Positions 2,023 to 14,793 of a stretch of DNA of 15,939 nucleotides are shown here, piece by piece. The stretch is from Moraxellaceae bacterium (GTDB lineage: Bacteria; Pseudomonadota; Gammaproteobacteria; Pseudomonadales; Moraxellaceae), in contig JBBKWW010000039.1 in the NCBI GenBank assembly GCA_037969155.1, positions 1 to 15,939 of the forward strand, read 5' to 3'. The position numbers and the translations under genes were made by a program. How positions within the stretch are numbered: position 1 is the stretch's first letter; each line of letters begins with the position of its first letter. The notes under the pieces are model-generated. The model was given only the letters and a program-made list of their open reading frames with translations. It had not been told where the DNA came from and did no database searches.

Positions 2023-2037
2023 GGTTGGTGTGCCACA

Positions 2038-2068
2038 CAAAACGGGACGTTATGTCCCGTTTTCTTTA
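2038..2068 (+). terminator. Rho-independent terminator after the thiolase gene: AAACGGGAC / GTTAT / GTCCCGTTT stem-loop followed by TTCTTT.
   Basis: A perfect 9-bp GC-containing stem, a 5-nt loop and a T-rich tail sit 16 nt after the stop codon. Confidence 0.6.
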
Positions 2069-2168
2069 GTGCTCAAGCATTGGAAAACCTTTAATCGTCT
2101 CAATGAACCCAAATCCACGCTCATCATTCCATTCCGCCAAGCGACCTTTAGTTTTGACCATCAATGAT

Positions 2169-2936
2169 CTATCCCACACTCAGCTTCTTTAATACTTCCG
2201 CCACAGCAACCAACCCCATACTCGCCGTCATCACCGTCGCCGAACCATAACCGCCACACTGCAAGCCGCCCGTCGTACAAGTCTCCGGCTGATATGGCTG
2301 CTCAATCGAATAGACACAAGTCACGCCAAATTTTTCTTTCGGTTTTTTACACATATTGTAATCCTGCCGCAGTGTGCGGCGGATTTTTGCCAGCATTGGA
2401 TCATATTCAGTCTTGGATAAATCGGCGACCCGAATACTGAGTGGATCAGTCTTGCCACCGGCACTGCCCGACACCACCAGCGGGATTTTATGCCACCGAC
2501 AATATAAAATCAGTGCAGTCTTGGCTTTGACATCATCAATACAGTCGAGAACCACATCAGGTGCTGTCGCCAACAGTTGCGCCACATTATCCACTGTCAA
2601 AAAATCATCGATGATATTCAGCTTAATGCGGGGGTTAATGCCACGAATCCGCTCGGCCATCGCTTGGGTTTTTTCCAGACCCAACGTATCGGTTAAGGCG
2701 GGCAACTGTCGATTGATATTCGAAGCCACCAAAATATCCATATCCACCAAGGTTATTTCAGCAATCGCTGTGCGTGCTAGTGCCTCCGCTGCCCAACTGC
2801 CGACCCCACCGATACCAATCACCATCACATGCGCTTGCTCAAAATCCGTTAAGCGTGCTGTACCATACACACGCTCAATCCCTGCAAAACGACGTGTATA
2901 CTCATCACTGCTTGGCGCTAGGTCAGCTGATGTCAT
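2169..2936 (-). CDS. tcdA: tRNA threonylcarbamoyladenosine (t6A) dehydratase TcdA/CsdL. ThiF/MoeB E1-like family.
   Basis: 255 aa. VMVIGIGGVGSWAAEALARTAIAEITLVDMD (Rossmann GxGxxG), NINRQLPAL, MAERIRGINP, IPLVVSGSAGGKTDP and the C-terminal GGYGSATVMTASMGLVAVAEVLKKL match my recollection of E. coli TcdA essentially block for block. Confidence 0.85.
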   Translation of the reverse strand: MTSADLAPSSDEYTRRFAGIERVYGTARLTDFEQAHVMVIGIGGVGSWAAEALARTAIAEITLVDMDILVASNINRQLPALTDTLGLEKTQAMAERIRGINPRIKLNIIDDFLTVDNVAQLLATAPDVVLDCIDDVKAKTALILYCRWHKIPLVVSGSAGGKTDPLSIRVADLSKTEYDPMLAKIRRTLRQDYNMCKKPKEKFGVTCVYSIEQPYQPETCTTGGLQCGGYGSATVMTASMGLVAVAEVLKKLSVG

Positions 2937-2955
2937 GGCGATTCCAAAGTAAAGT

Positions 2956-2970
2956 TAGCAAGGCTTGCTA
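2956..2970. promoter_or_regulatory. Perfect 15-bp palindrome TAGCAAGGCTTGCTA about 20 bp upstream of the tcdA start codon. Candidate operator.
   Basis: Self-complementary around a central G. It lies in the tcdA / yqiJ-like divergent intergenic region. Confidence 0.2.
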
Positions 2971-3246
2971 TTGTGCCAAAATAGTCGAATCCCATGCAGT
3001 CTTTCACGCAAAAGACCGCGAATAACTTGCTAAACCCAGCAAAAATACTTTATAAATTAACCGTTGCAAAAAACAGACAAAGCCAGACAAAAAGCAGCTT
3101 GACTACGCTATAGTGGTGTACAAGATTTTATTCGGCATGCCTGTATGGCTGATGCGGTATCTCGCGATACAATCCACTGATTGAACAGGATGCCTGAACA
3201 ATATCAGCCAACGCATCCATATACCGTCAAAGCTGAGGAGCATAAC

Positions 3247-3885
3247 ATGACTATTTTTCTCGCTAACATCCTCGCCTTTCCAACCATTATTTTTTCGATA
3301 TTACTCAGTGTTGCTGTGCTGTACTGGCTGATTTCGCTCACTGGTCTACTCGGATCAGATCTGGATCTGGATACCGGCGATGGTTGGTTAGATTTTGGGG
3401 GGCTGATGACCACTTTAGGACTCAAAGGCGTCCCCCTGCCGCTGCTCTTAACGCTGGTATTGCTGTGGGCTTGGCTGACCACCTATTCGGTGCAAGTGCT
3501 CTTCGCAACGTGGCTGACGGGCGTAATCGGGATTGTGGTCAGTTGTGTCTTGATTCCTGTTGCACTACTGCTCGGGCTGGTGCTGAGTGCTTTACTGGTG
3601 CGGCCATTTCACTCACTACTCGACGAATCGCAACAGCCGACCCAGACCCGCATTCTCGGCTGTGTCTGTAATGTGACTTCACCGACGGTGGATCAGCACA
3701 ATGGGCGTGCTGAAGCGCATTTAGATGGCGCACATTTGATCTTACAAATCCGCAGCAGTACACCACTGACTCGCGGTAGCCGAGCGGTCTTTATCGAATA
3801 TATTGCCGAAAAAAACCTGTATTGGGTTGTGCCTGAAGCCGAATTTCTGGCAGGATCAATCCAGAAAATCTCAATGAAAGATTAA
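3247..3885 (+). CDS. yqiJ: YqiJ/NfeD-like inner-membrane protein (DUF1449-like): N-terminal transmembrane helices plus a C-terminal OB-fold beta domain. Partner of the downstream flotillin.
   Basis: There are at least three hydrophobic helices (FLANILAFPTIIFSILLSVAVLYWLI, VPLPLLLTLVLLWAWL, IGIVVSCVLIPVALLLGLVLSALLV). These are followed by a soluble ~90-aa C-terminal domain (ILGCVCNVTSP...GAHLILQIRS...AVFIEY) of NfeD type. It sits immediately upstream of an SPFH/flotillin gene, as in E. coli yqiJK. The start was chosen at the ATG with GAGGAG 7 nt upstream; the ORF is open from the TTG at 3181. Confidence 0.55.
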   Translation: MTIFLANILAFPTIIFSILLSVAVLYWLISLTGLLGSDLDLDTGDGWLDFGGLMTTLGLKGVPLPLLLTLVLLWAWLTTYSVQVLFATWLTGVIGIVVSCVLIPVALLLGLVLSALLVRPFHSLLDESQQPTQTRILGCVCNVTSPTVDQHNGRAEAHLDGAHLILQIRSSTPLTRGSRAVFIEYIAEKNLYWVVPEAEFLAGSIQKISMKD

Positions 3886-3953
3886 TAGGGCATTGAGGAT
3901 GCTCACAACTGTGATTATTCCTCACTCATAGTACAGCTTAGGAGAGCGAACAC

Positions 3954-6119
3954 ATGACACATTGGTTCATCTTGGCGATCAGCGCAATTGCGGTGATTTT
4001 GATCGTCTTATTGGGCATGCTACTGCTGATTAAGATTTTTTATCGCAAAATTGACCAAGGCCAAGCCTTGATTAAAAATGACACGTCCAGCACCCCGAAA
4101 GTCTACTTTACTGGTGCGATGATTCTGCCCGTAATTCATCGGGCTGAGATCATGAAAATCTCAGTGATCACCCTCGAAATTAATCGAATGGGCAAAGAAG
4201 GCCTGATCTGCCGCGACAATTTACGCGCTGATATTAGCGTGGCATTTTATCTGCGGGTTAATGAAACCGCTGATGATGTGCTGCGCGTGGCCAAATCAGT
4301 TGGCGTGACGCGTGCCTCTGATCGGGATGCGGTCAGTGAGTTATTTAACTCTAAATTCAGTGAAGCCCTGAAAACGGTCGGTAAAAAACTCGAATTTATG
4401 CAGCTGTTTGAGGAGCGTCAGGCATTTCGGGATGCGATTGTCGCCACCATTGGGCAAGATCTGAATGGCTATGTGCTTGAAGATGTCGCCATCGACTACT
4501 TAGAGCAGACCCCAAAAAGCTCACTCGATCCGAATAACATCCTCGACTCTGAAGGGATTCGGCGGATTACTGAAATTACCGCCAAACACAATATCGAAAC
4601 CAACCGCTTAGAGCGTGATCAGGCACTAGAAATTCAGCGCAAAAACGTCTCTGCACGTGAAGCGGGTCTGGAGCTTGAACGCAGCCAAACCGATGCAGAA
4701 GCACGACAACGCCGCGAAATTGACACCTTAAAAGCGCGTGAAACCTCAGCCACCGAGCAAGTGCAGCAAGAAGAACGCGGCAAAATCGAAGCAGCACGCA
4801 TCAAGACGGAAGAAGACGTCGCGATTGCCGAAGAAAATAAACAACGCCAAATCGAACTGGCTGGCAAAGCCCGCGAGCGAGCGATTCAGATTGAAGACGT
4901 GCGTATCCGCCAAGCCCGCGAACTCGAAGACGTCAATCGTCAACGTGCGGTCGAAGTCGAACGCATTAACATGGAAAAAGAGCTGGAAGGTGAGCGCAAA
5001 GAAATTGCGGAAATCACCAGTCAGCGTATCGCAGTCGAACGCGGGGTCGCTGAAGAAGAAGAGAACATCAAAGATGTGCGTAACCGTTCGGATGCTGAGC
5101 GTAAAAAACTGGTTGCGATTACTGCGGCACAAGCGACGGCTGAAGAACACAAAATCAAACAAGTCAAAGCAGCTGAAGCACAGTTTGAGCAGTCAAAGTT
5201 TGAAGCGGATGAAGTGTTGGTACGTGCTCAGGCTGAATTCGATGCCGCCGAGAAAAAAGCCGCCGCTGAGAAAAAACAAGCCGAAGGCCAACAAGCGCTG
5301 GCTGCTGCAAATGGCCTAGCCGCTGCGCAAGTGCAAGAAGCCAACGCCAACGCCGAAAAAGCCGCGGGCTTGGCACAAGCCGACGTCAAGCTGGCCATGG
5401 CCAAAGCACAAGAAGAAACCGGTATGGCCGATGTGCGGGTACTCAACAATCGCCTGCAAGTCGAGGCTGACGGGCAAGAAAAACTTGGCTCTGCTAAGGC
5501 TAAAGCACGCGAAGCGATGGCCTTGGCGGATAAAGAAGCGGGGCTGGCAGAAGCACAAGTGTTGCAACAACGCCTACTCGCAGAAGCTGACGGAGAAGAA
5601 AAACTTGGCGTTGCTAAAGCTAAAGCTCGCGAAGCGATGGCGGCTGCGGATAAAGAAGCGGGACTGGCAGAAGCCTTAGTGATGGAAAAACGGCTGTTTG
5701 CTGAAGCAGATGGTGAGGAACGCTTGGGACTGGCGAAAGCCAAAACCCGCGAAGCCCTGCTAGTCGCTGATGCCAATGGCCTACTGGCCAAACTGAAAAC
5801 CTACGAAGATCTATCAGCAGATGCACGTTCGTTTGAAGAATTCCGGATGGGCTTAGAGTTGCAAGAGAAACAAATCTTGGGACAACTAGAAGCACAACAG
5901 GTGATTGCACAAGAAAATGCCAAAGTGATGGCGGCGGCATTGCAAAATGCTAAGTTTGAATTGATCGGTGGCGATGCCAGCATCTTCGAAAAATTCACTA
6001 CTGGCATGAGTTATGGCAAAGCAGTAGAAGGGGCGCTGTCTAAGTCGCCACAACTACAAGCCACTTTAGCCGCGATTGCTAGTCGGGTGGCACAGTCTTC
6101 AACCGACTCAGCAAGCTAA
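3954..6119 (+). CDS. yqiK: Flotillin-like SPFH/band-7 protein (YqiK/FloT-like) with a long Glu/Ala-rich coiled-coil C-terminal region.
   Basis: 721 aa. It has an N-terminal TM helix (WFILAISAIAVILIVLLGMLLLI). The SPFH core follows (KVYFTGAMILPVIHRAEIMKISVITLEINRMGKEGLICRDNLRADISVAFYLRV...). After that comes about 450 aa of heptad-like E/A/K/R-rich sequence. AGGAGA Shine-Dalgarno before the ATG. Confidence 0.85.
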   Translation: MTHWFILAISAIAVILIVLLGMLLLIKIFYRKIDQGQALIKNDTSSTPKVYFTGAMILPVIHRAEIMKISVITLEINRMGKEGLICRDNLRADISVAFYLRVNETADDVLRVAKSVGVTRASDRDAVSELFNSKFSEALKTVGKKLEFMQLFEERQAFRDAIVATIGQDLNGYVLEDVAIDYLEQTPKSSLDPNNILDSEGIRRITEITAKHNIETNRLERDQALEIQRKNVSAREAGLELERSQTDAEARQRREIDTLKARETSATEQVQQEERGKIEAARIKTEEDVAIAEENKQRQIELAGKARERAIQIEDVRIRQARELEDVNRQRAVEVERINMEKELEGERKEIAEITSQRIAVERGVAEEEENIKDVRNRSDAERKKLVAITAAQATAEEHKIKQVKAAEAQFEQSKFEADEVLVRAQAEFDAAEKKAAAEKKQAEGQQALAAANGLAAAQVQEANANAEKAAGLAQADVKLAMAKAQEETGMADVRVLNNRLQVEADGQEKLGSAKAKAREAMALADKEAGLAEAQVLQQRLLAEADGEEKLGVAKAKAREAMAAADKEAGLAEALVMEKRLFAEADGEERLGLAKAKTREALLVADANGLLAKLKTYEDLSADARSFEEFRMGLELQEKQILGQLEAQQVIAQENAKVMAAALQNAKFELIGGDASIFEKFTTGMSYGKAVEGALSKSPQLQATLAAIASRVAQSSTDSAS
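5439..5798 (+). repeat. Three in-frame tandem copies of a 120-nt (40-aa) unit inside the flotillin coiled-coil. A degenerate fourth copy lies upstream.
   Basis: The three units align residue for residue: VLNNRLQVEADGQEKLGSAKAKAREAMALADKEAGLAEAQ, VLQQRLLAEADGEEKLGVAKAKAREAMAAADKEAGLAEAL and VMEKRLFAEADGEERLGLAKAKTREALLVADANGLLAKL. The underlying DNA units are at 5439-5558, 5559-5678 and 5679-5798. The repeat also generates spurious ORFs in other frames (4738..5319, 5431..5679, 5228..5791 minus). Confidence 0.8.
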
Positions 6120-6151
6120 TCTGGCCTCGTGTAGCATGCTGAATCAGCACA

Positions 6152-6179
6152 CATCAAGGGCAGATTTCTGCCCTTGATG
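6152..6179 (+). terminator. Strong hairpin (12-bp perfect stem CATCAAGGGCAG / loop ATTT / CTGCCCTTGATG) between the flotillin gene and the giant ORF, with no U-tract. Attenuator, processing site or weak terminator.
   Basis: Inverted repeat seen directly. It is followed by CCGATTGCAGC, which is not T-rich. Confidence 0.4.
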
Positions 6180-6231
6180 CCGATTGCAGCACAAAACGCC
6201 AGAGACACCGCCACACTGATGGAACGCTCAT

Positions 6232-9200
6232 ATGTCAACAGATCATAACCAACTTGAACAGATCGTCCGTGAAGGCTCTGCCTTTGACACCATTCAACGC
6301 CGTTTGCAGACACAAGGCGAGCAATTACGCCACTCGATTAACGACCTAAACACCGAACGCACCGAGACTTTTGGCAGTGCCAACATGGCGATTTTGGGTC
6401 GCTCACGGGTGCGCACCGAACAAAATGGCGTCGCACGTGACGTGGTGCAGCTGGGCACACACCTGTTATTTGGCTTTAATCTCCAGCTGGGGCTGCGTAA
6501 AAATCTCAATGCCGATGATATTTTTGTGTTGTATCAACTCGACGACGCCAACGGTGAGTTTGAACTGACCGCACACAGCAATGCAGGCACGTTTTTGCAT
6601 GACCCAGTATTTTTGCGCGATTTTAATGAACTCCAACAATATTATAGCAATGCATTCTTAAGCCAACTGGTCTGCATGAGTGGCATGCTGCTTGCCGTAT
6701 TTCAGATCGGCGAAAAAGTCACGGATGTGCGGGTGTTTCGCTGGGAACTGTATCCGAATGGCAGCGTCAATCGCTATATCGATAATCGTGGCGAACGCGA
6801 GCTAAAATTTCCAGATCGGTTTGGCTTTAAATGGATCACGGCCACCCGCGAAATGCAGGTACAAGGCCGTCAGCCACACTTGAACATTTTAGATACGATT
6901 TTTGTCGATAATTTGCGCGGTGATATCACGTTTAAAATCGAAAACAACACGGCAACGGGTCAAGGTATTTTTGCTGATCCAGTCGATATCGACTCGCAGT
7001 CACTCGATGATGGCAGCTTTGAATATGCGGATTTGGGCGCATTAATTTTAGTGCGTATTTTACCCTTTACCGAAAAAACATGGCGTTACTACATTTTTAA
7101 CCGTGATTTACAAACTGTACGGCGAGTCGATGAGCTGGCCGGTTCAGTGGTTGCGCTACCCGAAAATCATGGGGTGATTTTTCCAGCAGGCTTTTATCTC
7201 AATAGCGGTGAGCTAAAGACATATGAGATTGCTGCCGAGGATTTTCGGTTTTTACGCAGCATTCGCGCACCGAATGGCGAAGATGTGCTGTTTATCTTTT
7301 TTGCACAAAAAACAGGGCATGTTCTGCTCTATCGTTATAATTTAATTAATAAAAGCACTGACACTCCACTGATCGGACATGGCTATGCGCTGCACAGCAG
7401 TGGCCGACTGGTGATCTTTCATGCCGAAGGTGAGCCGACGTTGGTGCATCCGCTACAACTGTGGCAAACGCCATTTATGACGGATACGGTACATGCTGAA
7501 CAGCAACAATCCAATGACAGCGTACTGGGCAAAATCGGCAATCCTGAACTGGTTCGCGGTATTGCAGAGCTGAACAGCATCACCAAACTGATTGAACAGC
7601 CGACTGCTTCTGAGCGGCATTTCAATAGTTTGATTCGACAAATTGACCGCACATTGGATCAGTATTTTTGGCTGAGCGAAGTGCATTTTGAAGCATTTAA
7701 TCAACAGCTGGTGGCCGCGCGTGGCACAGCGGAACTGATGATTGATGAGTACGAAAAGGTGCAAGCGATTCGGCAACAGTCCAATCAGGCGATTGAGCAA
7801 ACCGCACAACAACAAGCACAACTGCTGCGCGACCTAAAGCCCAAACAATGGAACGCGCCAGATCAGTTTGTGGGTTACCTGAAAAAACTACGCGATCATC
7901 ACGGCCAACTGATGAGCCTAAAGGATCGGCGTTATATTGATACGACTCGCCTTGAGCAACTGCAACAGGCGCTCAAAACCGCGCAAGATCAGCTGACCGT
8001 GCAGACGTTTGATTTTTTGGCATCTGAAGCGGCACTCCAAGGCTATCGCAATACGCTATCCGAACTGGCCAGCCAAGTCACTACCGCGCAAACCCGTGAT
8101 GCACTGAGCACACTGGTGGCGCAATATCGTGAACTGACGCTTGGGCTCGATATGATCCAAAGCATGTTGGCCTCGATGAGTGGCGATAACACCACACAAC
8201 AGACTCAGATCGCCGAAAACATCTCCAGTATCTATGCCACGATCAATCAGCAACGCGCCGAAGCCGAAATCCGGCTGCGCGAACAAGGCAGTGCCGAGGC
8301 ACGGGCGCAGTTTACCGCAAGGATTCGACTGTATGAACAAAGCCTTGCCAATGGCATCGGCACGCTCAGCGCCCCCGATGATTGCGATGGCTTACTGGCT
8401 CGTATGCTGGATCAACTGCAAGAACTCGAAAGCCAATTTAGCGAGTTTGATGATTTTTTACTGTTGATCTTAGAGCAACGCGACAGCACGCAAGACAGTA
8501 TCGAAGCACGACGCTTACAGCTACAAGAACAACGACAACGCCGTATCAACACCTTAAGCGACGCGAATAGCCGCATTCTGATCAATATCAAACAACGCAG
8601 CGAACGCTTTGCCGAACTGGCCGAATTGCATGCGTTTTTTGCCGGTGATGCGATGGTGGCCAAAGTGCGCCAAATGGCACAGCAACTGCGCGACATCGGC
8701 GCAAGTCTGGAGGCCGATACCGCCGAAGGCCAATTGCGTGCTGCGCAAGATGCGGCGATGCGCAGCGTGCGTGATCGTGCCGATATTTTTGAGGATGGCG
8801 GCAATCTGATTCGGCTAGGTCGGCATCGCTTTAGTGTCAATCAGCAACAACTGGATCTGACCTTAATTCCGCGCGATGGCAAGCTGATGCTGCACCTGAC
8901 GGGCACGCAGTTTTATGAACCGCTGGAGGATCCACGACTCGCCGTATTGCAGCAGTATTGGAACATTCAAACACCATCTGAATCCGAACAGGTCTATCGT
9001 GCCGAGTATTTGGCCTATCTGATCCTGCAACAACTGAGTAGTCGCCCACAATTGCCGTTTAATCTGGCGGATCAAGCCGCGCTGACCGACTATATTCGGC
9101 AGTTTGCCTCACCACGCTATCGAGAAGGCTACGAAAAAGGCATTCATGATGTCGATGCTGCCAAAATCGTCAGTGCGCTGTGGACCGCACAACAACAGGC

Positions 9201-11670
9201 AGGGCTGCTCCGTTTCTCGCCGACCGCACGCGCGATGGCAATGCTGTTTTGGCAAGCACTGACCCAACAACCGAACTGCCAAACTGCCCGTAGCTTACAG
9301 GCGCGTGCCCAGTCGGCGGGTAGCTTGCAGCGGATTCTCGGCAGTGAGCAACTGTTACAGCGCTTGACCGAAGAAATTCAGCCTGCCCTATCCAGCTTTA
9401 TCGATGCCCAGCAACTGCGTGCCAATACCGCCCAAACCCAACAAGCCGCAGCGTACTTGATTCGACAACTCGCCGACCCAGTGGCCAGCCAAGATGTCCG
9501 CTTCGTCAGCACGCAATATGCGCAACAACAACGACAAGCCTTCCAACAGGCTGCACAGCAACAGGGCTATCAGGCCGAGCTACAACAGGCCATTCAGCAA
9601 GCCGGTCAAAATTATGGCAAAGCATGGGCAGTGGCTGACACATGGCTGACGGCGTTTTTGCAAAAACATGAAAGTAACAATCCGGCGCAACAGCAGCACT
9701 ATCTGCCCGAAACTATTGCACTGCTGCTCACCCCCGAACTGCCGCATCAGGCACAGTCAGTCGAACTGTCGTTTGTGATTGAAGGTTTAATCGGTCAGCA
9801 TCCGCGTTTAAATGGCCAACAACTGTCGATTCAATTGGATGATTTTTTTGAGCGTTTACAACAGCATGAACAGGTGGTGATCACGGGTTGGCAGCAACTG
9901 CAACAGCTGCGACACGAGATTTTGCAGCAGCAACGCGAGCGGCTGCGCTTGAGTGAATACACCGCCAAACCGCTATCATCATTTGTGCGCAATAAGCTAA
10001 TTAGCGAAAGTTATTTGCCATTGATCGGTGACAATCTGGCCAAACAAATGGGCACTGTCGGCGAAAATCGACGCACCGATCAGACGGGCCTACTGATGAT
10101 GATCTCGCCGCCTGGTTATGGTAAAACCACCCTGATGGAGTATGTTGCTGATCGTTTAGGCTTGATTTTTATGAAAATCAACTGCCCCAGCCTTGGCCAT
10201 GATGTGACCTCACTCGATCCTGAGCAAGCCCACCATTCCACCGCAAAATCCGAACTGACCAAACTGAATCTGGCCTTAGAAATGGGCAACAACGTGATGC
10301 TGTATCTGGATGACATTCAGCATACGCATCCTGAGTTTTTACAAAAATTCATCTCCTTATGTGATGGTACACGGCGGATTGAAGGGGTTTGGCGTGGCAA
10401 AAGCAAAACCTACGACATGCGCGGCAAGCGCTTTTGTATTGCGATGGCAGGTAATCCGTACACCGAAAGCGGTGAAGTGTTTAAGATTCCTGACATGCTC
10501 GCCAACCGCGCCGATATTTATAACTTAGGCGATGTACTCAGCGGCATGGAACAGGTGTTTGCACTGTCGTATATCGAAAACGCGATCAGTTCGAATGCCA
10601 TGATTGCACCGATAGCGACCCGTGGCATGGATGATTTTTATCGTTTTGTTGATCTCGCCAATGGCCGCGACGTGCCGAGTACCGAGTTTGATTACGACTA
10701 TAGCGCAGCGGAACGGCAAGACATCACCAAGGTCATGCAAAACCTGTTTAAAGTACGCCAGACTGTGCTTCGGGTGAATCAAGAATACATCGCATCGAGT
10801 GCGCAAGCCGATCAGTATCGCACTGAGCCGAGTTTTCGCTTGCAAGGCAGCTATCGCAACATGAACCGCTTGGCCGAAAAAATCTCACCGATCATGACCG
10901 ACGCTGAAATCGAACGGCTACTCGACGATCACTATGTGGGTGAAGCACAATTGCTGACGCAAGGTGCAGAAGAAAACCTGCTCAAGCTTAAATCCATGCG
11001 CGGCACCTTGAACGCCGAGGAGCAAACCCGCTGGACACAGATCACCAGCGAGTTTCAACGCCGCCAGCAGATGGGCGGCGACCAAGACACCGGCGAAAAA
11101 GTGGTACGCCAGTTGGTATTTATCAGCGAGGGCTTACAACAACTGCACAGCATCAGCAATCAGCACAGCGAACGACAACTGACTCAGCAAGATGCGCAGT
11201 TTGGTCGCATCGCTGACGGTCTATCTGGCTTGCAAAACAGCCAGCGCGAACTGACCGAACAACGCCACAATCAACAGCGCGACTTGGCCAGCCAACAGCT
11301 ACGCTTAGAACAGACACGCCAACAACAACAGAACGATACGCTGAGTGGCTTGGCGGCGCAATTGATCCAGCAACTGCAACAGCTTGATCTAAAACCGCAA
11401 GTGCATATACAGATTGAAGAACCACGCAGTGTCAGTGAGCTGCTGAAACAAATGTCGAGCCTACTCGCGCAAGTGCTAGGTAGTTTAAATCCAAAGGATG
11501 ATCAGGCGGCACAGACCAAGGCCATCAGCGATGCCCTGCAAACGGGTCAAAGCCAGACCGTGCAACTGCTCCGCCAGCTGCGCATGCTGATGGTGCGCCT
11601 AGAAGGACAAGTCCGCCAAAGCAACCTGCAACAGGCGCAATTACAGCCGCCGTCTGACTCGCAAACTTAA
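6232..11670 (+). CDS. Giant multidomain protein (1812 aa). It has an N-terminal globular domain (about 1-480) and a long Gln/Leu-rich predicted coiled-coil region (about 480-1250). A MoxR/dynein-related (AAA_5-like) AAA+ ATPase core sits at about aa 1280-1480. The C-terminal tail is Gln-rich. Function unknown.
   Basis: It is a single 5.4-kb ORF with no competing long ORFs on either strand. Walker A is ISPPGYGKTTL (nt 10108-10140). Walker B is VMLYLDDIQH (nt about 10294-10323). The following RRIEG...GKRFCIAMAGNPYTESGEVFKIPDMLANRADIY segment matches the MoxR/AAA_5 pattern (DEInR...ATQNP.E..G.Y.LPEA.LDRF). The central and C-terminal regions have extended Q-rich heptad-like sequence (QQQRQAFQQAAQQQGYQAELQQAIQQ, LRLEQTRQQQQN). 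Confidence 0.8.
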   Translation: MSTDHNQLEQIVREGSAFDTIQRRLQTQGEQLRHSINDLNTERTETFGSANMAILGRSRVRTEQNGVARDVVQLGTHLLFGFNLQLGLRKNLNADDIFVLYQLDDANGEFELTAHSNAGTFLHDPVFLRDFNELQQYYSNAFLSQLVCMSGMLLAVFQIGEKVTDVRVFRWELYPNGSVNRYIDNRGERELKFPDRFGFKWITATREMQVQGRQPHLNILDTIFVDNLRGDITFKIENNTATGQGIFADPVDIDSQSLDDGSFEYADLGALILVRILPFTEKTWRYYIFNRDLQTVRRVDELAGSVVALPENHGVIFPAGFYLNSGELKTYEIAAEDFRFLRSIRAPNGEDVLFIFFAQKTGHVLLYRYNLINKSTDTPLIGHGYALHSSGRLVIFHAEGEPTLVHPLQLWQTPFMTDTVHAEQQQSNDSVLGKIGNPELVRGIAELNSITKLIEQPTASERHFNSLIRQIDRTLDQYFWLSEVHFEAFNQQLVAARGTAELMIDEYEKVQAIRQQSNQAIEQTAQQQAQLLRDLKPKQWNAPDQFVGYLKKLRDHHGQLMSLKDRRYIDTTRLEQLQQALKTAQDQLTVQTFDFLASEAALQGYRNTLSELASQVTTAQTRDALSTLVAQYRELTLGLDMIQSMLASMSGDNTTQQTQIAENISSIYATINQQRAEAEIRLREQGSAEARAQFTARIRLYEQSLANGIGTLSAPDDCDGLLARMLDQLQELESQFSEFDDFLLLILEQRDSTQDSIEARRLQLQEQRQRRINTLSDANSRILINIKQRSERFAELAELHAFFAGDAMVAKVRQMAQQLRDIGASLEADTAEGQLRAAQDAAMRSVRDRADIFEDGGNLIRLGRHRFSVNQQQLDLTLIPRDGKLMLHLTGTQFYEPLEDPRLAVLQQYWNIQTPSESEQVYRAEYLAYLILQQLSSRPQLPFNLADQAALTDYIRQFASPRYREGYEKGIHDVDAAKIVSALWTAQQQAGLLRFSPTARAMAMLFWQALTQQPNCQTARSLQARAQSAGSLQRILGSEQLLQRLTEEIQPALSSFIDAQQLRANTAQTQQAAAYLIRQLADPVASQDVRFVSTQYAQQQRQAFQQAAQQQGYQAELQQAIQQAGQNYGKAWAVADTWLTAFLQKHESNNPAQQQHYLPETIALLLTPELPHQAQSVELSFVIEGLIGQHPRLNGQQLSIQLDDFFERLQQHEQVVITGWQQLQQLRHEILQQQRERLRLSEYTAKPLSSFVRNKLISESYLPLIGDNLAKQMGTVGENRRTDQTGLLMMISPPGYGKTTLMEYVADRLGLIFMKINCPSLGHDVTSLDPEQAHHSTAKSELTKLNLALEMGNNVMLYLDDIQHTHPEFLQKFISLCDGTRRIEGVWRGKSKTYDMRGKRFCIAMAGNPYTESGEVFKIPDMLANRADIYNLGDVLSGMEQVFALSYIENAISSNAMIAPIATRGMDDFYRFVDLANGRDVPSTEFDYDYSAAERQDITKVMQNLFKVRQTVLRVNQEYIASSAQADQYRTEPSFRLQGSYRNMNRLAEKISPIMTDAEIERLLDDHYVGEAQLLTQGAEENLLKLKSMRGTLNAEEQTRWTQITSEFQRRQQMGGDQDTGEKVVRQLVFISEGLQQLHSISNQHSERQLTQQDAQFGRIADGLSGLQNSQRELTEQRHNQQRDLASQQLRLEQTRQQQQNDTLSGLAAQLIQQLQQLDLKPQVHIQIEEPRSVSELLKQMSSLLAQVLGSLNPKDDQAAQTKAISDALQTGQSQTVQLLRQLRMLMVRLEGQVRQSNLQQAQLQPPSDSQT

Positions 11671-11683
11671 ACTGGATATCGGC

Positions 11684-12406
11684 ATGAGCGCAGCAAAACA
11701 GATTTTATGGGTGGAGGATGACCCCGCGATTGCTGAACCGATGTGCTATGCCTTGCAACGCGAAGGCTGGCAGGTGCACTGGCAAACCACCGCACAAGGT
11801 GCATTAGAGCTGCTCAGTACACAGGTCTTTGACTGTCTGATTTTGGACGTCGGTTTGCCCGATATGGATGGTTTTGATCTGTGTCGGCGGATTCGCCAAA
11901 CCTGCCAAACGCCGCTGCTGTTTTTAACCGCACGCAATGACGAAATCGAACGCATCATCGGCCTCGAAATCGGCGCGGATGATTACTGCGCCAAGCCGTT
12001 TAGCCCGCGTGAAATCATCTCGCGGATTAAGGCGATTTGGCGACGGATGCAGCCCAGCAGCAGCGAGCCAATCCATAGCACGCCGCCTACAATACCAGCA
12101 GCCACTGACCTGCACACATGGGGCGCGTGGCGTTATCAGCCGCACAGTTATCAGTTGTTTTATCACCAGCAACTACTGAATTTAACCCGCTATGAACTGG
12201 GCTTAATCTTGCTGTTCCTACAACAGCCTGAGCGGGTGTTTAGCCGTGAACAACTGATGCAACAGGTCTGGCAACATCCCGACCACAGCCTTGAGCGCAC
12301 CGTCGATAGCCACATCAAAACCCTGCGCCAAAAACTACACGCCATCCATCCAAGCGATCCGATTGTGACCCATCGTGGTTTGGGCTATAGCTTACTGCGC
12401 GACTAA
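11684..12406 (+). CDS. creB: OmpR/PhoB-family response regulator, CreB-like.
   Basis: The receiver domain has VEDD, the phospho-acceptor region LILDVGLPDMDGFDLCR and LFLTARNDEIERIIGLEIGADDYCAKPFSPREI. The C-terminal winged helix has LTRYE...VFSREQLMQQVW...RTVDSHIKTLRQKLHAIHP...THRGLGYSL. These blocks closely parallel E. coli CreB as I recall it. The start is 13 nt after the giant ORF's stop. Confidence 0.65.
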   Translation: MSAAKQILWVEDDPAIAEPMCYALQREGWQVHWQTTAQGALELLSTQVFDCLILDVGLPDMDGFDLCRRIRQTCQTPLLFLTARNDEIERIIGLEIGADDYCAKPFSPREIISRIKAIWRRMQPSSSEPIHSTPPTIPAATDLHTWGAWRYQPHSYQLFYHQQLLNLTRYELGLILLFLQQPERVFSREQLMQQVWQHPDHSLERTVDSHIKTLRQKLHAIHPSDPIVTHRGLGYSLLRD

Positions 12407-12459
12407 GACCCAATCAGTGCGATACTGGTGATCCATAGCGGCGGGTAGATTAGGCAAGC

Positions 12460-13926
12460 ATGTCAATTTTTGTGCGAATTTGGGCAGCGTTTACGCTGGT
12501 CTTGCTGATCGGTAGTCTCCTGACCACGCATGCGCTACAACAACAAATCAAACCCAACATGCGCCAAGTGGTCGAGGATACGTTAGCGGACAATGCCAAT
12601 CTAATCGCTGGATTGGTTGCCGATGATCTACGCGATGGGCGTTTGCAAAACGTGGCGTTTGACCAAAAAATCCAAGCTGCACTCAGCCGTGATCTGAATG
12701 CCAAAATCCGCAGCATGTCAAAAACAAATGTCCAGCAAACCCTATATATCACTGATGCACAAGGCAGGGTGCGCTACGACTCGAGTGGCCACGCAACTGG
12801 CCAAGACTACTCACGCTGGAATGACGTGTATCTAACCCTACGCGGCCAATACGGCGCACGCTCAACGCGCAGCGATCCAAATGACGAGAACAGCTCGGTG
12901 ATGTATATTGCTGCACCGATCATTGATCAGGGTCAAATCATCGGCGTGGTCAGTGTCGGCAAAGCAGGGCGCACCGTACAGCCGTATATCGAAAATGCCC
13001 AGCGCGAGATGCTGCAACAAGCTGCGCTGATGGTATTAATTTCACTGTTGCTGTGTGGCGTAGTCGCATGGTGGCTACGCCGCAGTATCAACACTGTACG
13101 CCGCTACGCGCTGTCACTGCCTGCGCATGAATTGCCCGCACCGCATTTTTATTCGGCCAGTGAACTGAATGACCTGACCCGTGCCCTGACCCAAATGCGC
13201 AGCCAACTCGAAGACCGCGCCTACATCGAACAAGTGGTACACCATCTGACCCACGAACTCAAAAGCCCACTGACCGCGATCAGTGCCAGTGCTGAATTGC
13301 TACAAGACCCGCTGCCCTTGGTGGATCAGCAGCACTTCGCCGCCAATATCCAACAGCAAACCGAACATCTGCAACAACTGGTTGAGCGGCTACTGATACT
13401 GGTACGCCTAGAGCAACAAGCTGATCAATTCGTATTACAGCCCCACAATTTAAGCCAGCTTGTTGCAAGCTGTATCCAAGCGCGGCAGAGTGTTTTGCGC
13501 AGTCGGCAAGTTCAAATCATCAATACACTGCCCGATCCACTCTGGGTACTGGCTGAGCCATTTTGGTTGGGACAAGCGATTGGTAATCTGCTCGATAACG
13601 CCATCGACTTTACTGCGGCACAAGGCATGATTCGGCTCACTAGTCACCGCACGGGTTTACAACAACAACTGAGTATTGAAAACAACGGTGAACCGATTCC
13701 TGACTATGCGTTGTCACAAGTATTTGATCGGTATTTCTCTTTGCCCAGACCCATGACAGGCCGCAAAAGCAGCGGTATCGGCTTGACTTTAGTCAAAGAA
13801 ATCATGCTACGTCATCAAGGTGCAGTGACGCTGGACAACACACCGAATGGCGTCTGTGCCAGTCTGTGGTTGGCACAAGCAGACCCAAACACCGACCGTC
13901 AAACAACCACTGCGAAATCGTCATAA
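12460..13926 (+). CDS. creC: Sensor histidine kinase with two TM helices flanking a periplasmic domain of about 170 aa. CreC-like.
   Basis: H-box HHLTHELKSPLTAISASAELL, N-box LLDNAIDFT and G-box GIGLTLVKEIM. TM1 is IWAAFTLVLLIGSLLTT and TM2 is AALMVLISLLLCGVVAWWL. It is the partner of the CreB-like regulator, and a creD-like gene lies downstream. Confidence 0.6.
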   Translation: MSIFVRIWAAFTLVLLIGSLLTTHALQQQIKPNMRQVVEDTLADNANLIAGLVADDLRDGRLQNVAFDQKIQAALSRDLNAKIRSMSKTNVQQTLYITDAQGRVRYDSSGHATGQDYSRWNDVYLTLRGQYGARSTRSDPNDENSSVMYIAAPIIDQGQIIGVVSVGKAGRTVQPYIENAQREMLQQAALMVLISLLLCGVVAWWLRRSINTVRRYALSLPAHELPAPHFYSASELNDLTRALTQMRSQLEDRAYIEQVVHHLTHELKSPLTAISASAELLQDPLPLVDQQHFAANIQQQTEHLQQLVERLLILVRLEQQADQFVLQPHNLSQLVASCIQARQSVLRSRQVQIINTLPDPLWVLAEPFWLGQAIGNLLDNAIDFTAAQGMIRLTSHRTGLQQQLSIENNGEPIPDYALSQVFDRYFSLPRPMTGRKSSGIGLTLVKEIMLRHQGAVTLDNTPNGVCASLWLAQADPNTDRQTTTAKSS

Positions 13927-14028: not shown

Positions 14029-14793
14029 ATGAATATGACTCGTTATCTCAATCATTTTAAAAAACCCATGCTGCCGTCTATTTTTATCGGCATATGGCCA
14101 CTATTCGGACTGTATCTCTGGCTACAAATGGAGAGTCTATTTGCCCTGATCATCGGCAGCTTTTTTGCTGTACTGCACTATCGCAAATGGCGGCGTTACC
14201 AACGTGCGCAATATATTGAACAGTACGCCATGCCGTTGTATCTCTTGCATGATCTGCGCCGAGAGTATCAGCTTGACTCGGTACAACTGCCCATCATCGA
14301 GCGCGGCTTTAAAGACTTTTGCTTAATTCATCTGGAGAAACCCAACCAACTGCACAACATGCCGTCTAAAGCAGTCGATGCACTGTGGCACGCTTTTATC
14401 CTCGACACACGCAGCTATGCGGAGTTTTGTCAGCGTGCCTTTGGCCACATGCTGCATCATCGCCCGTCACTCGACATGCAAGCGTTGTCCAATACCACAC
14501 AGCAAAAATCCTTAAAGGCCACATGGCTTGGCGCGTGCCAACTGGAAAATTTCACCCACACACACGCCGCTCAGTTGCCGTTACAGTTACCCTTGTTATT
14601 TGCCATTGACCAGTACTTGGCGTGGCCGCAAGGCTTGCACTATCAGCTAGATCAACTGCAACACTTACTCAGAGTTCGTGATGCGAGTTCGAGTTGTGGT
14701 GGTGGAAGCTGTGGTGGGACATCCGTTGATATCAGTGATAACAGCAGTTCAGGTGGTGATTCGGGCTGTGGCGGTGGTTGTGGTGGGGATTAA
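14029..14793 (+). CDS. N-terminally membrane-anchored protein. Its conserved-looking core carries a WHxFxLDTxxY motif and several His residues, possibly related to DUF1399 (glycine-rich domain-containing protein-like). It ends in a Cys/Gly-rich C-terminal tail.
   Basis: 254 aa. TM segment: IFIGIWPLFGLYLWLQMESLFALIIGSFFAVL. Core: VDALWHAFILDTRSYAEFCQRAFGHMLHHRP. Tail: SSSCGGGSCGGTSVDISDNSSSGGDSGCGGGCGGD. AGGAGA Shine-Dalgarno 10 nt upstream. Confidence 0.55.
   Translation: MNMTRYLNHFKKPMLPSIFIGIWPLFGLYLWLQMESLFALIIGSFFAVLHYRKWRRYQRAQYIEQYAMPLYLLHDLRREYQLDSVQLPIIERGFKDFCLIHLEKPNQLHNMPSKAVDALWHAFILDTRSYAEFCQRAFGHMLHHRPSLDMQALSNTTQQKSLKATWLGACQLENFTHTHAAQLPLQLPLLFAIDQYLAWPQGLHYQLDQLQHLLRVRDASSSCGGGSCGGTSVDISDNSSSGGDSGCGGGCGGD

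What the first reader, a model, noticed from the sequence alone, without database searches (positions are those of the whole stretch)
3247..11670. Possible three-gene module: NfeD-like (yqiJ) – flotillin (yqiK) – giant AAA+ protein
The NfeD/SPFH pairing is a canonical two-gene operon. Here a third, very large ATPase gene follows in the same orientation 112 nt downstream, with no recognisable promoter in between. The gap contains only a strong hairpin without a U-tract, which could act as an attenuator or RNA-processing site and allow read-through. If the three genes are co-transcribed, the giant protein may be a client or effector of the flotillin scaffold.
Basis: inference. Interest (0 to 1): 0.55.

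Follow-up and report, generated by a model that had tools for sequence, protein, structure and literature searches.

The report
Flotillin operon with giant AAA+ ATPase
The three genes are a real, widely conserved membrane-scaffold module: a small membrane protein, a flotillin and a giant ATPase. It is a shortened copy of a system already described in comparative genomics and in the Pseudomonas aeruginosa "bac" operon, so it is a sound finding but not a new one.

Summary
Three + strand genes (3247-3885, 3954-6119, 6232-11670) are separated by 68 and 112 nt. The 112-nt gap carries a 12-bp hairpin (6152-6179, -21.9 kcal/mol) with no U-tract and no sigma-70-like site.

In all 75 loci from about 80 species that hold enough upstream DNA, the YqiJ-like gene and the flotillin gene lie directly upstream of the giant DUF3686/AAA+ gene on the same strand. 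These species span Gamma- and Betaproteobacteria, Myxococcota, Zetaproteobacteria and one Clostridia-labelled MAG.

The module is already in the literature. Ravi et al. 2024 describe the operon as YqiJ/YuaF + Band-7/flotillin + beta-propeller/coiled-coil/AAA+, often with CesT-like + PspA. The P. aeruginosa orthologues are bacC-bacD-bacE of the bacABCDEF operon. RT-PCR there spans the flotillin-ATPase junction, and the proteins are co-regulated.

The window holds the PspA-less abbreviated form. Here it is followed 13 nt later by creBC.

My own addition concerns the hairpin. A stable stem-loop just after the flotillin stop is conserved in position but not in sequence: at least 10 bp in 31 of 54 gaps, against about 2.5 of 54 in shuffles. 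It usually lacks a U-tract, which fits an attenuator or mRNA-stabiliser role.

The function of the ATPase (remodelling flotillin/PspA assemblies) remains inferred.

The parts
3247..3885 (+). Gene 1: a 212-aa inner-membrane protein with 3 hydrophobic segments and a C-terminal soluble domain. It is YqiJ/YuaF-like (short NfeD-like) and orthologous to P. aeruginosa BacC (PA3730).
   Evidence: ORF and strong SD GAGGAG. Three hydrophobic segments. No Pfam or NCBIfam hit for it or for 34 relatives. hhalign of family profile A2 against E. coli YqiJ gives probability 91%, E 9e-7, colinear. 35% identical to the P. aeruginosa BacC-position protein, E 3e-25. Found upstream of the flotillin in every locus with enough DNA.
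3954..6119 (+). Gene 2: a 721-aa flotillin-type SPFH protein. It has an N-terminal TM anchor (aa 6-24), an SPFH/Band-7 domain (aa about 32-180), a long Ala/Glu/Lys-rich coiled coil and a C-terminal globular end. Orthologue of P. aeruginosa BacD (PA3729, 'PaFlo3').
   Evidence: Band_7 at E 6.5e-11 on aa 1-249 only. One TM segment. 26% identical to E. coli YqiK, E 3e-37. 52% identical over 686 aa to the P. aeruginosa protein. The SPFH domain is 51-87% identical across all loci.
5466..5755 (+). 120-bp (40-aa) tandem repeat, 2.4 copies, inside the flotillin coiled-coil region. Copy number seems to differ from the 90%-identical relative (721 vs 679 aa).
   Evidence: Tandem Repeats Finder. Repeats are visible in the translation. 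L001 flotillin is 679 aa.
6152..6179 (+). Intercistronic stem-loop, 12 bp with a 4-nt loop and no U-tract, 33 nt after the flotillin stop. Proposed attenuator or 3'-end mRNA stabiliser that lowers ATPase expression relative to flotillin.
   Evidence: -21.9 kcal/mol, z -5.5. Unique in the window. No Rfam family. Conserved in L001, and replaced by a different 13-bp hairpin in L069. Enriched at this position across 54 loci.
6232..11670 (+). Gene 3: a 1812-aa soluble giant ATPase, annotated 'DNA repair ATPase' in databases. Orthologue of P. aeruginosa BacE (PA3728 / PA14_16190).
   Evidence: Pfam DUF3686 + DUF7902 + AAA/AAA_5. No TM segment apart from one buried hydrophobic stretch. 49% identical over 1641 aa to P. 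aeruginosa P0400. At least 1513 relatives among the 8,000 candidates scored. 645 50%-identity cluster representatives carry DUF3686, and full-length ones are 1590-2036 aa. Weak SD (GGA) before the ATG.
6388..7467 (+). Beta-rich N-terminal domain (aa 53-412) inside DUF3686. It is an irregular beta-propeller-like fold, preceded by a long helix (aa 17-47).
7483..9951 (+). Long helical region (aa 418-1240). It holds helical bundles or coiled coils including DUF7902 (aa 601-684), a small beta element (aa about 876-898) and a well-predicted all-helical domain (aa about 923-1240).
   Evidence: Models md447efd9ca8d and m317725a0545c. Pfam DUF7902. Many invariant residues at 842-1007.
10087..11061 (+). 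Single AAA+ module (aa about 1286-1610). Motifs: Walker A GYGKTT 1295-1300, Walker B LYLDD 1357-1361 (Asp-Asp, not Asp-Glu), sensor-1 N1408 in AGNP, and a putative Arg finger R1426 in PDMLANRA.
   Evidence: Pfam AAA and AAA_5. Motifs are present in 76 of 76 family members (64 of 76 for the exact GNP). Invariant columns. Foldseek gives generic AAA+ hits: Skd3/ClpB, RuvB, MCM, NorQ/CbbQ at E about 1e-4.
11089..11640 (+). Gln-rich, poorly conserved C-terminal helical tail of the giant protein (aa about 1620-1803).
   Evidence: Low-confidence long helices in model m317725a0545c. Variable columns in A1.
11684..13926 (+). creB (11684-12406) and creC (12460-13926). These are lineage-specific downstream neighbours. 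creB starts 13 nt after the giant gene's stop, so read-through from the module is likely here, but they are not part of the conserved module.
   Evidence: NCBIfam CreB 288 bits and CreC 595 bits, both above cut-off. Junction sequence. The same arrangement occurs only in L001.

Best explanation
The three genes form one conserved functional module. It is the PspA-less ('abbreviated') form of the YqiJ-like / flotillin / beta-propeller-AAA+ system that Ravi et al. 2024 linked to PspA. Its full form is the P. aeruginosa bacABCDEF operon, and the window genes correspond to bacC, bacD and bacE.

What is shown:
- the gene order is invariant across distant bacteria;
- the ATPase motifs are intact everywhere;
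- in P. aeruginosa the orthologues are co-transcribed and co-regulated.

What is inferred:
1. Transcription starts upstream of gene 1 and reads through into the giant gene.
2. The stem-loop 33 nt after the flotillin stop, together with the weak ribosome-binding site of the giant gene, lowers ATPase output relative to the abundant scaffold. It could do this by partial termination or pausing, or by protecting the 3' end of a processed yqiJ-like/flotillin mRNA.
3. The YqiJ-like protein and the flotillin build a membrane-anchored SPFH assembly on the cytoplasmic face of the inner membrane.
4. The soluble giant protein docks on this assembly through its propeller and helical arms.
5. As an AAA+ oligomer it uses ATP to remodel or disassemble flotillin and/or PspA-type (ESCRT-III-like) polymers during membrane stress or repair.
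6. In this lineage the transcript probably continues into creBC.
For: Synteny. In 75 of 75 loci with both genes readable, the flotillin lies directly upstream of the giant gene on the same strand. The YqiJ-like gene lies before it wherever DNA is available. Two extra degraded or frameshifted flotillin loci, and one further locus, still have the DUF3686 gene downstream. Flanking genes differ between lineages, so the three genes are the conserved unit.

Accessory genes reproduce the published operon. DUF2170 + PspA_IM30 lie upstream in 42 of 75 loci, PLDc_2 downstream in 15 and rhomboid downstream in 10. This matches Ravi et al. (PMC11237479).

P. aeruginosa locus L086 reads DUF2170, PspA, a 213-aa protein, a 688-aa flotillin, a 1746-aa DUF3686/AAA protein, PLD, YaeQ, RecJ, LasB. 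This matches the numbering PA3732 to PA3724. Identities to the window proteins are 35%, 52% and 49%.

Experiments in P. aeruginosa. RT-PCR gave products across all junctions from bacA to PA14_16200. BacB to BacF rise 6- to 13-fold in a bacA mutant (PMC10948618).

Co-transcription elsewhere. Gaps of 40 nt or less, or overlaps, occur in 7 loci.

Hairpin. A stem of at least 10 bp occurs in 31 of 54 flotillin-to-ATPase gaps. This compares with a mean of 2.5 of 54 in shuffles, 13 of 270 same-length CDS windows, 25 of 182 other co-directional gaps and 2 of 44 yqiJ-like-to-flotillin gaps. The median start is 14 nt after the stop, and only 6 of 41 have a T-rich tail. The P. aeruginosa junction is also strongly structured, yet it is read through.

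ATPase competence. Walker A, Walker B and the Arg-finger-like motif are present in 76 of 76 members.

Architecture. A propeller-like N-terminal domain, long helical arms and one AAA+ module, with no TM segment.
Against: - No transcript data exist for this organism.
- The typical gap of 80-150 nt with a strong hairpin is also what an operon end looks like. A minority of loci (6 of 41) have a T-rich tail, i.e. look like real intrinsic terminators.
- RT-PCR in P. aeruginosa shows some read-through, not its efficiency, and does not exclude an extra internal promoter.
- The window lacks the PspA/DUF2170 pair and the sigma-54 site reported for bacA, so regulation may differ here.
- No interaction between flotillin and the ATPase has been measured anywhere that I could find.
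- The substrate of the ATPase is unknown.
- The propeller assignment rests on low-TM Foldseek hits. The AAA+ clade is unresolved.
- Walker B is Asp-Asp rather than Asp-Glu in all members, which could mean slow or regulated hydrolysis.
Confidence: 0.72

Rival explanations
1. The module is two transcription units. The YqiJ-like and flotillin genes form a classical two-gene NfeD/SPFH operon that ends at the hairpin. The giant gene (with creBC in this lineage) is transcribed from its own promoter in the gap or in the 3' end of the flotillin gene. The link is functional, seen as conserved neighbourhood, but not transcriptional.
For: E. coli yqiJK and Shewanella SO1376/SO1377 are two-gene units. The Shewanella pair is followed by a rho-independent terminator. 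A stable hairpin right after the flotillin stop is the rule, and some loci have T-rich tails. creB follows the giant gene by only 13 nt, so giant-creBC could be a unit. One sigma-54-like match lies at 5929-5944, inside the flotillin 3' end.
Against: No sigma-70-like site lies in the gap. The sigma-54-like matches are at chance level, 16 found against 15.9 expected. The window hairpin has no U-tract. Seven loci have gaps of 40 nt or less, or overlapping genes. RT-PCR read-through across the equally structured junction has been shown in P. aeruginosa.
Confidence: 0.2
2. The giant protein is a DNA repair ATPase, as its database name says, and its position next to the flotillin genes has no functional meaning.
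For: Only the names: Pfam DUF3686 'ATPase involved in DNA repair' and NCBI 'DNA repair ATPase'. There is a very weak RuvB-like hit at E 0.024, and RuvB and MCM appear among generic AAA+ fold hits.
Against: No DNA-binding, nuclease or helicase domain was detected. No paper in the library holds DUF3686 or PF12458. Neighbourhood with membrane proteins is invariant in about 75 species, together with PspA, PLD and rhomboid. The RuvB hit covers only the P-loop region.
Confidence: 0.03
3. The module is an anti-phage or other conflict system carried on mobile DNA.
For: The taxonomic distribution is patchy and includes a Clostridia-labelled MAG. McrBC lies a few kb downstream in L001. One copy is riddled with IS elements and a group II intron.
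Against: None of the three proteins gives a PADLOC hit. There is no composition anomaly across the module. There are no integrase or transposase genes in the window. The giant gene is common in P. aeruginosa assemblies: 3222 member sequences in one 90% cluster. The published phenotypes concern biofilm, swarming and osmotic stress.
Confidence: 0.05

Closest known systems
P. aeruginosa bacABCDEF ('biofilm-associated cluster', PA3732-PA3727 / PA14_16140-PA14_16200; Mace et al. 2008 PMC2587700; Ben Mlouka et al. 2024 PMC10948618)
   Same: bacC, bacD and bacE are the orthologues of the three window genes. They are in the same order and on the same strand, at 35%, 52% and 49% identity. A structured gap of about 150 nt lies between flotillin and ATPase.
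   Different: The window lacks bacA (DUF2170, CesT-like), bacB (PspA homologue) and bacF (PLD). It shows no sigma-54 site upstream. It has creBC directly downstream instead. The bac papers do not describe the domain content of BacE.
PspA-associated CesT/Tir - YqiJ/YuaF - Band-7/flotillin - beta-propeller/coiled-coil/AAA+ operon of Ravi et al. 2024 (PMC11237479)
   Same: The three core components and their order are the same as in the Dokdonia example in their Table S3. The paper explicitly notes 'abbreviated operons' without PspA. The PLD accessory gene was also recovered in my loci.
   Different: That description is purely comparative-genomic. It gives no statement on the intercistronic hairpin, on Walker B Asp-Asp or on the creBC linkage.
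E. coli yqiJ-yqiK and B. subtilis yuaF-floT (NfeD-like + flotillin two-gene operons)
   Same: A small multi-TM protein with a C-terminal OB-like domain is followed by a TM-anchored SPFH/coiled-coil flotillin.
   Different: These are paralogues. Identity to YqiK is 26%. The Pfam YqiJ_N, YqiJ_OB and Flot models hit the E. coli proteins but not the window proteins. No giant ATPase follows yqiK in E. coli.
HflK/HflC-FtsH (and mitochondrial prohibitin / m-AAA, SLP2-YME1L-PARL)
   Same: An SPFH scaffold is functionally coupled to an AAA+ machine. A rhomboid gene accompanies the module in 10 loci, as PARL does with SLP2. This comparison is an analogy from established knowledge.
   Different: The giant protein has no protease domain and no TM anchor. 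The YqiK-type flotillin is expected to face the cytoplasm, whereas HflK/C is periplasmic. No physical complex is known.
Vps4 / ESCRT-III (and PspF-PspA) type AAA+ remodelling of PspA-family polymers
   Same: A single-AAA+-domain protein with a large N-terminal substrate or adaptor region is genetically linked to a PspA (ESCRT-III superfamily) gene in 42 of 75 loci.
   Different: There is no MIT domain. The AAA+ clade is unresolved, with weak hits to Skd3/ClpB, RuvB, MCM and NorQ/CbbQ and Pfam hits to AAA and AAA_5. The window has no pspA nearby.

Membership tests
YqiJ-like / flotillin / DUF3686-AAA+ module (Ravi et al. 2024; P. aeruginosa bacCDE) | Giant protein with an N-terminal beta-propeller-like domain, coiled coil or helical arms, and a single C-terminal AAA+ module (Pfam DUF3686 + DUF7902 + AAA) | tested here: met
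   Pfam DUF3686 E 7e-171, DUF7902 E 2e-16, AAA/AAA_5 above cut-off. Model with a beta domain at aa 53-412 and helices 418-700. Foldseek best hits are beta-propellers. 49% identical to P. aeruginosa BacE.
YqiJ-like / flotillin / DUF3686-AAA+ module (Ravi et al. 2024; P. aeruginosa bacCDE) | TM + Band-7/SPFH + long coiled coil + flotillin-type C-terminus, encoded directly upstream on the same strand | tested here: met
   Band_7 E 6.5e-11 on aa 1-249. One TM segment. 52% identical over 686 aa to BacD, including the C-terminus. The Pfam 'Flot' model itself does not hit.
YqiJ-like / flotillin / DUF3686-AAA+ module (Ravi et al. 2024; P. aeruginosa bacCDE) | 3-TM YqiJ/YuaF-type protein encoded directly upstream of the flotillin | tested here: met
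   Three hydrophobic segments. hhalign against E. coli YqiJ gives probability 91%, E 9e-7. 35% identical to BacC. The similarity to YqiJ is remote.
YqiJ-like / flotillin / DUF3686-AAA+ module (Ravi et al. 2024; P. aeruginosa bacCDE) | Conserved gene order across unrelated genomes | tested here: met
   75 of 75 loci, plus L083-L086.
Full bacABCDEF / PspA-linked form | CesT/Tir-like DUF2170 gene and PspA-family gene immediately upstream | tested here: not met
   Upstream of gene 1 lies a divergent ThiF-family gene and a thiolase. There is no DUF2170 or PspA match in the window. The same absence is seen in 33 of 75 loci, so this is the abbreviated form.
Full bacABCDEF / PspA-linked form | PLD (HKD) gene downstream of the ATPase | tested here: not met
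   creB follows after 13 nt. PLD is present in 15 of 75 loci.
Full bacABCDEF / PspA-linked form | Co-transcription of the flotillin and ATPase genes | not testable with these tools
   Shown by RT-PCR only in P. aeruginosa PA14 (PMC10948618). Here it is inferred from geometry and from loci with overlapping genes.
Full bacABCDEF / PspA-linked form | Sigma-54 (-24/-12) promoter upstream of the operon | tested here: not met
   There is no TGGCAC-N5-TTGCW-like match in 2937-3246. Matches across the window are at chance level, 16 against 15.9 expected.
E. coli YqiJ / YqiK orthologues | Match to Pfam YqiJ_N + YqiJ_OB, and to Band_7 + Flot, at family thresholds, with high identity | tested here: not met
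   The E. coli proteins hit these models. The window proteins and 34 relatives do not hit the YqiJ models. The Flot model does not hit. Identity to YqiK is 26%.
Canonical NfeD | Pfam NfeD (OB-fold C-terminal domain) match | tested here: not met
   No Pfam hit up to E = 10 apart from noise. No PDB sequence hit for profile A2. Only the remote YqiJ relationship is supported.
Active AAA+ ATPase | Walker A Lys, Walker B acidic pair, sensor-1 polar residue and Arg finger conserved | tested here: met
   GYGKTT, LYLDD, AGNP and PDMLANRA are present, and conserved in 76, 76, 64 and 76 of 76 members. Walker B is Asp-Asp rather than Asp-Glu.
HflK/C-FtsH-type SPFH-AAA+ protease pair | AAA+ partner carries a protease domain and TM anchors | tested here: not met
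   No peptidase domain and no TM segment. This is an analogy only.
Intrinsic (rho-independent) terminator | GC-rich stem-loop followed directly by a U-tract | tested here: not met
   The stem is present, but the tail is CCGATTGCAG. It was not reported by the terminator scan.
Known RNA family (Rfam) in the gap | Covariance-model match | tested here: not met
   No Rfam match with E up to 1 anywhere in the window.
Known anti-phage defence system | Match to PADLOC models | tested here: not met
   No hit for any of the three proteins.

The most novel reading that the evidence does not exclude
The stem-loop just after the flotillin stop codon is conserved in position but not in sequence, and mostly lacks a U-tract. 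It may be a dedicated, phylum-spanning regulatory device that fixes a high-scaffold / low-ATPase stoichiometry. The giant propeller-AAA+ protein may be a bacterial Vps4- or FtsH-like remodeller that acts on the flotillin assembly itself. That would explain why the three-gene core persists without a cis-encoded PspA. In this lineage the module may in addition be transcriptionally fused to the CreBC envelope-responsive two-component system.
Probability: 0.25. Interest if true: 0.6.

Novelty: new member of a known kind. Interest (0 to 1): 0.3.

Why it matters
Bacterial flotillins are still scaffolds in search of a mechanism, and no partner enzyme is established for the YqiK-type proteins. This module gives one flotillin subfamily an obligate genomic partner: a 200-kDa AAA+ protein found in hundreds of species, including P. 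aeruginosa, where the operon affects biofilm formation, swarming and virulence.

The window adds nothing categorically new. It does show that the three-gene core is the stable unit, because PspA, PLD and rhomboid come and go. It also shows that database names ('DNA repair ATPase', 'hypothetical protein') hide this link. Finally, the flotillin-ATPase junction carries a conserved structural signal that could be tested directly.

Tried and rejected
- **Full-length Pfam and NCBIfam scans of genes 1 and 2** gave nothing. The flotillin is recognised only when its coiled coil is cut off. Its C-terminal pieces hit nothing.
The closest relatives are a metagenome scaffold at 90% identity (L001) and a Moraxellaceae MAG at 69% (L069).
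- **PADLOC:** no hits.
- **Rfam:** no hits.
- **PDB sequence profiles** for the giant protein and for the YqiJ-like family: no hits.
- **Foldseek on the C-terminal model** gave only generic AAA+ matches, so I do not assign an AAA+ clade. A motif resemblance to MoxR/AAA_5 proteins is from memory and is not claimed.
- **The second homologue search** (flotillin N-terminus) returned only truncated proteins of at least 54% identity. A proper converse test, asking how often this flotillin subfamily lacks the ATPase, was therefore limited to three look-ups. All three were positive.
- **Sigma-54 and sigma-70 pattern searches** were uninformative.
- **Literature searches** for DUF3686, PF12458 and 'DNA repair ATPase' + flotillin found nothing.
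- **The P. aeruginosa SPFH survey** (PMC13086221) mentions PaFlo3/short NfeD but not the ATPase.
- **The Arc-pathway paper** lists PA3729 only as an IP background protein.
- **Two failed calls:** one script timed out, and one call had a frame error.
- **Rejected ideas:** orthology with E. coli yqiJK, a DNA-repair function, a defence island, and the hairpin being a repeated (REP-like) element in the window.

Full report
**1. What is in the window**

The region holds three + strand genes.
- Gene 1 runs 3247-3885 (212 aa). Its ATG sits behind a GAGGAG Shine-Dalgarno sequence. The mechanical ORF starts at 3181.
- Gene 2 runs 3954-6119 (721 aa).
- Gene 3 runs 6232-11670 (1812 aa).

The gaps between them are 68 and 112 nt.

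The 112-nt gap contains CATCAAGGGCAG-ATTT-CTGCCCTTGATG at 6152-6179. This is a perfect 12-bp stem with a 4-nt loop, at -21.9 kcal/mol and z = -5.5 against shuffles. It is followed by CCGATTGCAG, so there is no U-tract. It is not called by the terminator scan. It occurs only once in the window and matches no Rfam family. No sigma-70-like site lies in the gap.

**2. Gene identities**

The flotillin is invisible to Pfam at full length, presumably because of its long Ala/Glu/Lys coiled coil. Its first 249 residues hit Band_7 at E 6.5e-11. It has one N-terminal TM segment. It is 26% identical to E. coli YqiK.

Gene 1 has three hydrophobic segments and a soluble C-terminal domain. Neither it nor 34 relatives hit any Pfam model. 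A profile of the family nevertheless aligns end to end with E. coli YqiJ (hhalign probability 91%, E 9e-7).

The two genes are thus YqiJ-like and YqiK-like paralogues. They are not the E. coli orthologues, whose proteins do hit YqiJ_N, YqiJ_OB and Flot.

The giant protein carries DUF3686 (aa 32-479), DUF7902 (aa 601-684) and a single AAA+ module. It has no TM segment.

**3. Anatomy of the giant protein**

Two AlphaFold models were built from 30-sequence alignments.
- The N-terminal 700 residues have mean pLDDT 84. They consist of a long helix (17-47), a beta-rich domain (53-412) and then helical bundles (418-700).
- Foldseek places the beta domain among beta-propellers: Elp1, Sec12, the clathrin terminal domain and prolyl oligopeptidase. 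E-values are 2e-6 to 1e-4 but TM-scores are low, so it is an irregular propeller.
- Residues 871-1240 form a confidently predicted, mainly helical domain.
- Residues about 1286-1610 form the AAA+ module. It resembles solved AAA+ proteins only generically: Skd3/ClpB, RuvB, MCM and NorQ/CbbQ, at E about 1e-4.
- The last roughly 190 residues are Gln-rich, variable helices.

The catalytic motifs are conserved in 76 of 76 family members, apart from the exact GNP at 64 of 76: Walker A GYGKTT (1295-1300), Walker B LYLDD (1357-1361), sensor-1 N1408 and the Arg-finger-like PDMLANRA. Walker B is Asp-Asp throughout.

The DUF3686 domain occurs in 645 50%-identity cluster representatives. Full-length members are 1590-2036 aa, so the domain sits at the N-terminus of proteins of this size in essentially all complete members.

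**4. Synteny**

A scan of one genome per species with an alignment of the giant protein returned 80 loci. They come from Marinobacter, Pseudomonas and relatives, Xanthomonadales, Enterobacterales (Xenorhabdus, Limnobaculum, Gilliamella), Burkholderiales, Methylomonas, Zetaproteobacteria, Myxococcota and one Clostridia-labelled MAG.

In every locus with both genes readable (75 including the window), the flotillin gene lies directly upstream of the giant gene on the same strand. The YqiJ-like gene lies upstream of the flotillin wherever the contig extends that far. The few loci without these genes start at or inside the giant gene.

Flanking genes differ between lineages. The creBC pair that follows in the window recurs only in the 90%-identical relative L001.

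Three further look-ups that started from flotillin fragments also found the DUF3686 gene downstream. One of these copies is broken by IS elements and a group II intron.

**5. Accessory genes and the literature**

Clustering the ORFs of the loci showed accessory genes:
- a DUF2170 gene and a PspA_IM30 gene immediately upstream in 42 of 75 loci (35 co-directional, 7 divergent);
- a PLD-like gene downstream in 15 loci;
- a rhomboid gene downstream in 10 loci;
- a small TerB-like ORF between the flotillin and ATPase genes in 5 loci.

This is exactly the operon described by Ravi et al. 2024 (PMC11237479). [quoted passage not shown] They add PLD in some Proteobacteria and 'abbreviated operons' lacking PspA.

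The window is such an abbreviated operon. Upstream of gene 1 lie a divergent ThiF-family gene and a thiolase.

**6. Experimental anchor**

The P. aeruginosa member of the giant family is P0400, with 3222 member sequences in one 90% cluster. It sits in this gene order: DUF2170, PspA, a 213-aa protein, a 688-aa flotillin, the 1746-aa ATPase, PLD, YaeQ, RecJ, M4 protease. This fits the numbering PA3732 down to lasB = PA3724.

These are the bac genes. Mace et al. 2008 (PMC2587700) defined PA3732-PA3729. They showed that a PA3731 (PspA-like) mutant is defective in biofilm formation, swarming, rhamnolipid production and virulence, and that the PA3731 protein rises on osmotic shock.

Ben Mlouka et al. 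2024 (PMC10948618) extended the operon to bacA-bacF. Their RT-PCR gave a product across every junction, including bacD-PA14_16190. BacB to BacF all rise 6- to 13-fold in a bacA mutant.

By position and size, BacC, BacD and BacE are the orthologues of the window's three genes, at 35%, 52% and 49% identity. The assignment of BacE to the DUF3686 protein is my inference from gene order and locus numbering. The paper does not give its domains.

**7. The junction between the flotillin and ATPase genes**

Across loci the gap is usually 60-220 nt. Seven loci have gaps of 40 nt or less, or overlapping genes. A few have inserted genes.

In the 54 loci with 40-250-nt gaps, stem-loops are strongly enriched:

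| Sequence set | Stem of at least 8 bp | Stem of at least 10 bp |
|---|---|---|
| Flotillin-to-ATPase gaps | 41 of 54 | 31 of 54 |
| Shuffled versions of those gaps (mean) | about 12 of 54 | about 2.5 of 54 |
| Same-length windows inside the giant CDS | 71 of 270 | 13 of 270 |
| Other co-directional gaps in the same loci | 56 of 182 | 25 of 182 |
| YqiJ-like-to-flotillin gaps | 11 of 44 | 2 of 44 |

The stem usually starts about 14 nt after the flotillin stop. Only 6 of 41 have a T-rich tail.

The sequence is not conserved. The window and L001 share one hairpin, while L069 has a different 13-bp hairpin of -22 kcal/mol. The P. aeruginosa junction is also strongly structured, yet it is read through in RT-PCR.

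The most economical reading is an intra-operon stem-loop that reduces downstream expression or stabilises the upstream message. The weak GGA ribosome-binding site of the giant gene, against AGGAGA and GAGGAG for the two upstream genes, would reinforce this effect. That fits a many-copy scaffold and a few-copy enzyme.

This step is inference. A true terminator combined with an internal promoter cannot be excluded.

**8. Mechanism**

- Shown: invariant linkage, intact ATPase motifs, and co-transcription and co-regulation in one orthologous system.
- Inferred from established knowledge: SPFH proteins form membrane-attached oligomeric assemblies, NfeD-type partners accompany them, and AAA+ proteins remodel protein assemblies.
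- Proposed model: the YqiJ-like protein and the flotillin build the scaffold on the cytoplasmic face of the inner membrane. The soluble giant protein docks through its propeller and helical arms. As an AAA+ oligomer it remodels flotillin and/or PspA-type polymers during membrane stress.

The recurrent PspA, PLD and rhomboid neighbours point to membrane maintenance, not DNA repair. The database name 'DNA repair ATPase' has no support that I could find.

**9. Verdict**

However, the module is a further member, in the PspA-less form, of a system already described by comparative genomics and partly studied in P. aeruginosa.

Three things are modestly new here: the position-conserved junction hairpin, the invariant Asp-Asp Walker B, and the lineage-specific 13-nt coupling to creBC.

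Noticed in passing
window 11670-13926 (creB 11684-12406, creC 12460-13926): creB starts only 13 nt after the giant gene's stop. That leaves no room for a terminator or an intergenic promoter. The same junction occurs in the 90%-identical relative L001, where creD follows further downstream, but in no other locus. In this lineage the CreBC two-component system may be transcribed with the flotillin/ATPase module.
   Followed up: partly
window 5466-5755: A 120-bp (40-aa) tandem repeat, 2.4 copies at 77-84% DNA identity, lies inside the flotillin coiled coil. The window protein is 721 aa and the L001 orthologue is 679 aa, which suggests copy-number variation of one repeat.
   Followed up: partly
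window 10300-10314 (aa 1357-1361) and all 76 family members: The Walker B motif of the giant ATPase is hhhhDD (LYLDD) instead of the usual hhhhDE in 76 of 76 members. This may mean slow or regulated ATP hydrolysis.
   Followed up: partly
window 3954-6119; precomputed Pfam columns: Full-length flotillins of this subfamily get no Pfam hit ('-') because of the long low-complexity coiled coil. Only the isolated N-terminus hits Band_7. Automated annotation therefore hides the SPFH identity of these genes.
   Followed up: yes
giant gene family: The Pfam description 'ATPase involved in DNA repair' and the NCBI name 'DNA repair ATPase' appear unsupported. No DNA-related domain was detected, the genomic context is membrane-related, and no paper in the library mentions DUF3686 or PF12458.
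   Followed up: partly
L011, L019, L025, L039, L067 (between flotillin and giant gene); L010, L023 (downstream): A small ORF of about 80 aa with weak TerB similarity (E 0.004) is inserted between the flotillin and ATPase genes in five loci, four of them Pseudomonas-type and one Lysobacter. This widens the gap to 400-950 nt.
   Followed up: no
L083 9001-18900: One copy of the module is decayed. The flotillin is truncated at 299 aa. Transposases (DDE_Tnp_1, rve) and a group II intron reverse transcriptase are inserted before the remains of the ATPase gene.
   Followed up: no
window 2022-2169 vs L001 5336-5992: L001 carries a cold-shock-domain + DUF1294 gene between the thiolase and the ThiF-family gene. 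That gene is absent from the window, where only 146 nt separate the two genes.
   Followed up: no
window 5929-5944 (+): A sigma-54-like match (TGGCGGCGGCATTGCA, 2 mismatches) lies inside the 3' end of the flotillin gene, about 290 nt upstream of the giant gene's start. Matches of this quality are at chance frequency in the window (16 found, 15.9 expected).
   Followed up: partly
L001 20931-24142: A McrBC restriction system lies about 5.5 kb downstream of the module in the close relative L001. This region is beyond the end of the window.
   Followed up: no
window 105-761, 14029-14793 and 15229-15687: ORF 105-761 is a pilin-like protein (N_methyl motif, weak GspH). ORF 14029-14793 is an uncharacterised 254-aa membrane-like protein; its L001 counterpart hits UCP032817-like. 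ORF 15229-15687 has no family hit. None of the three appears linked to the module.
   Followed up: no
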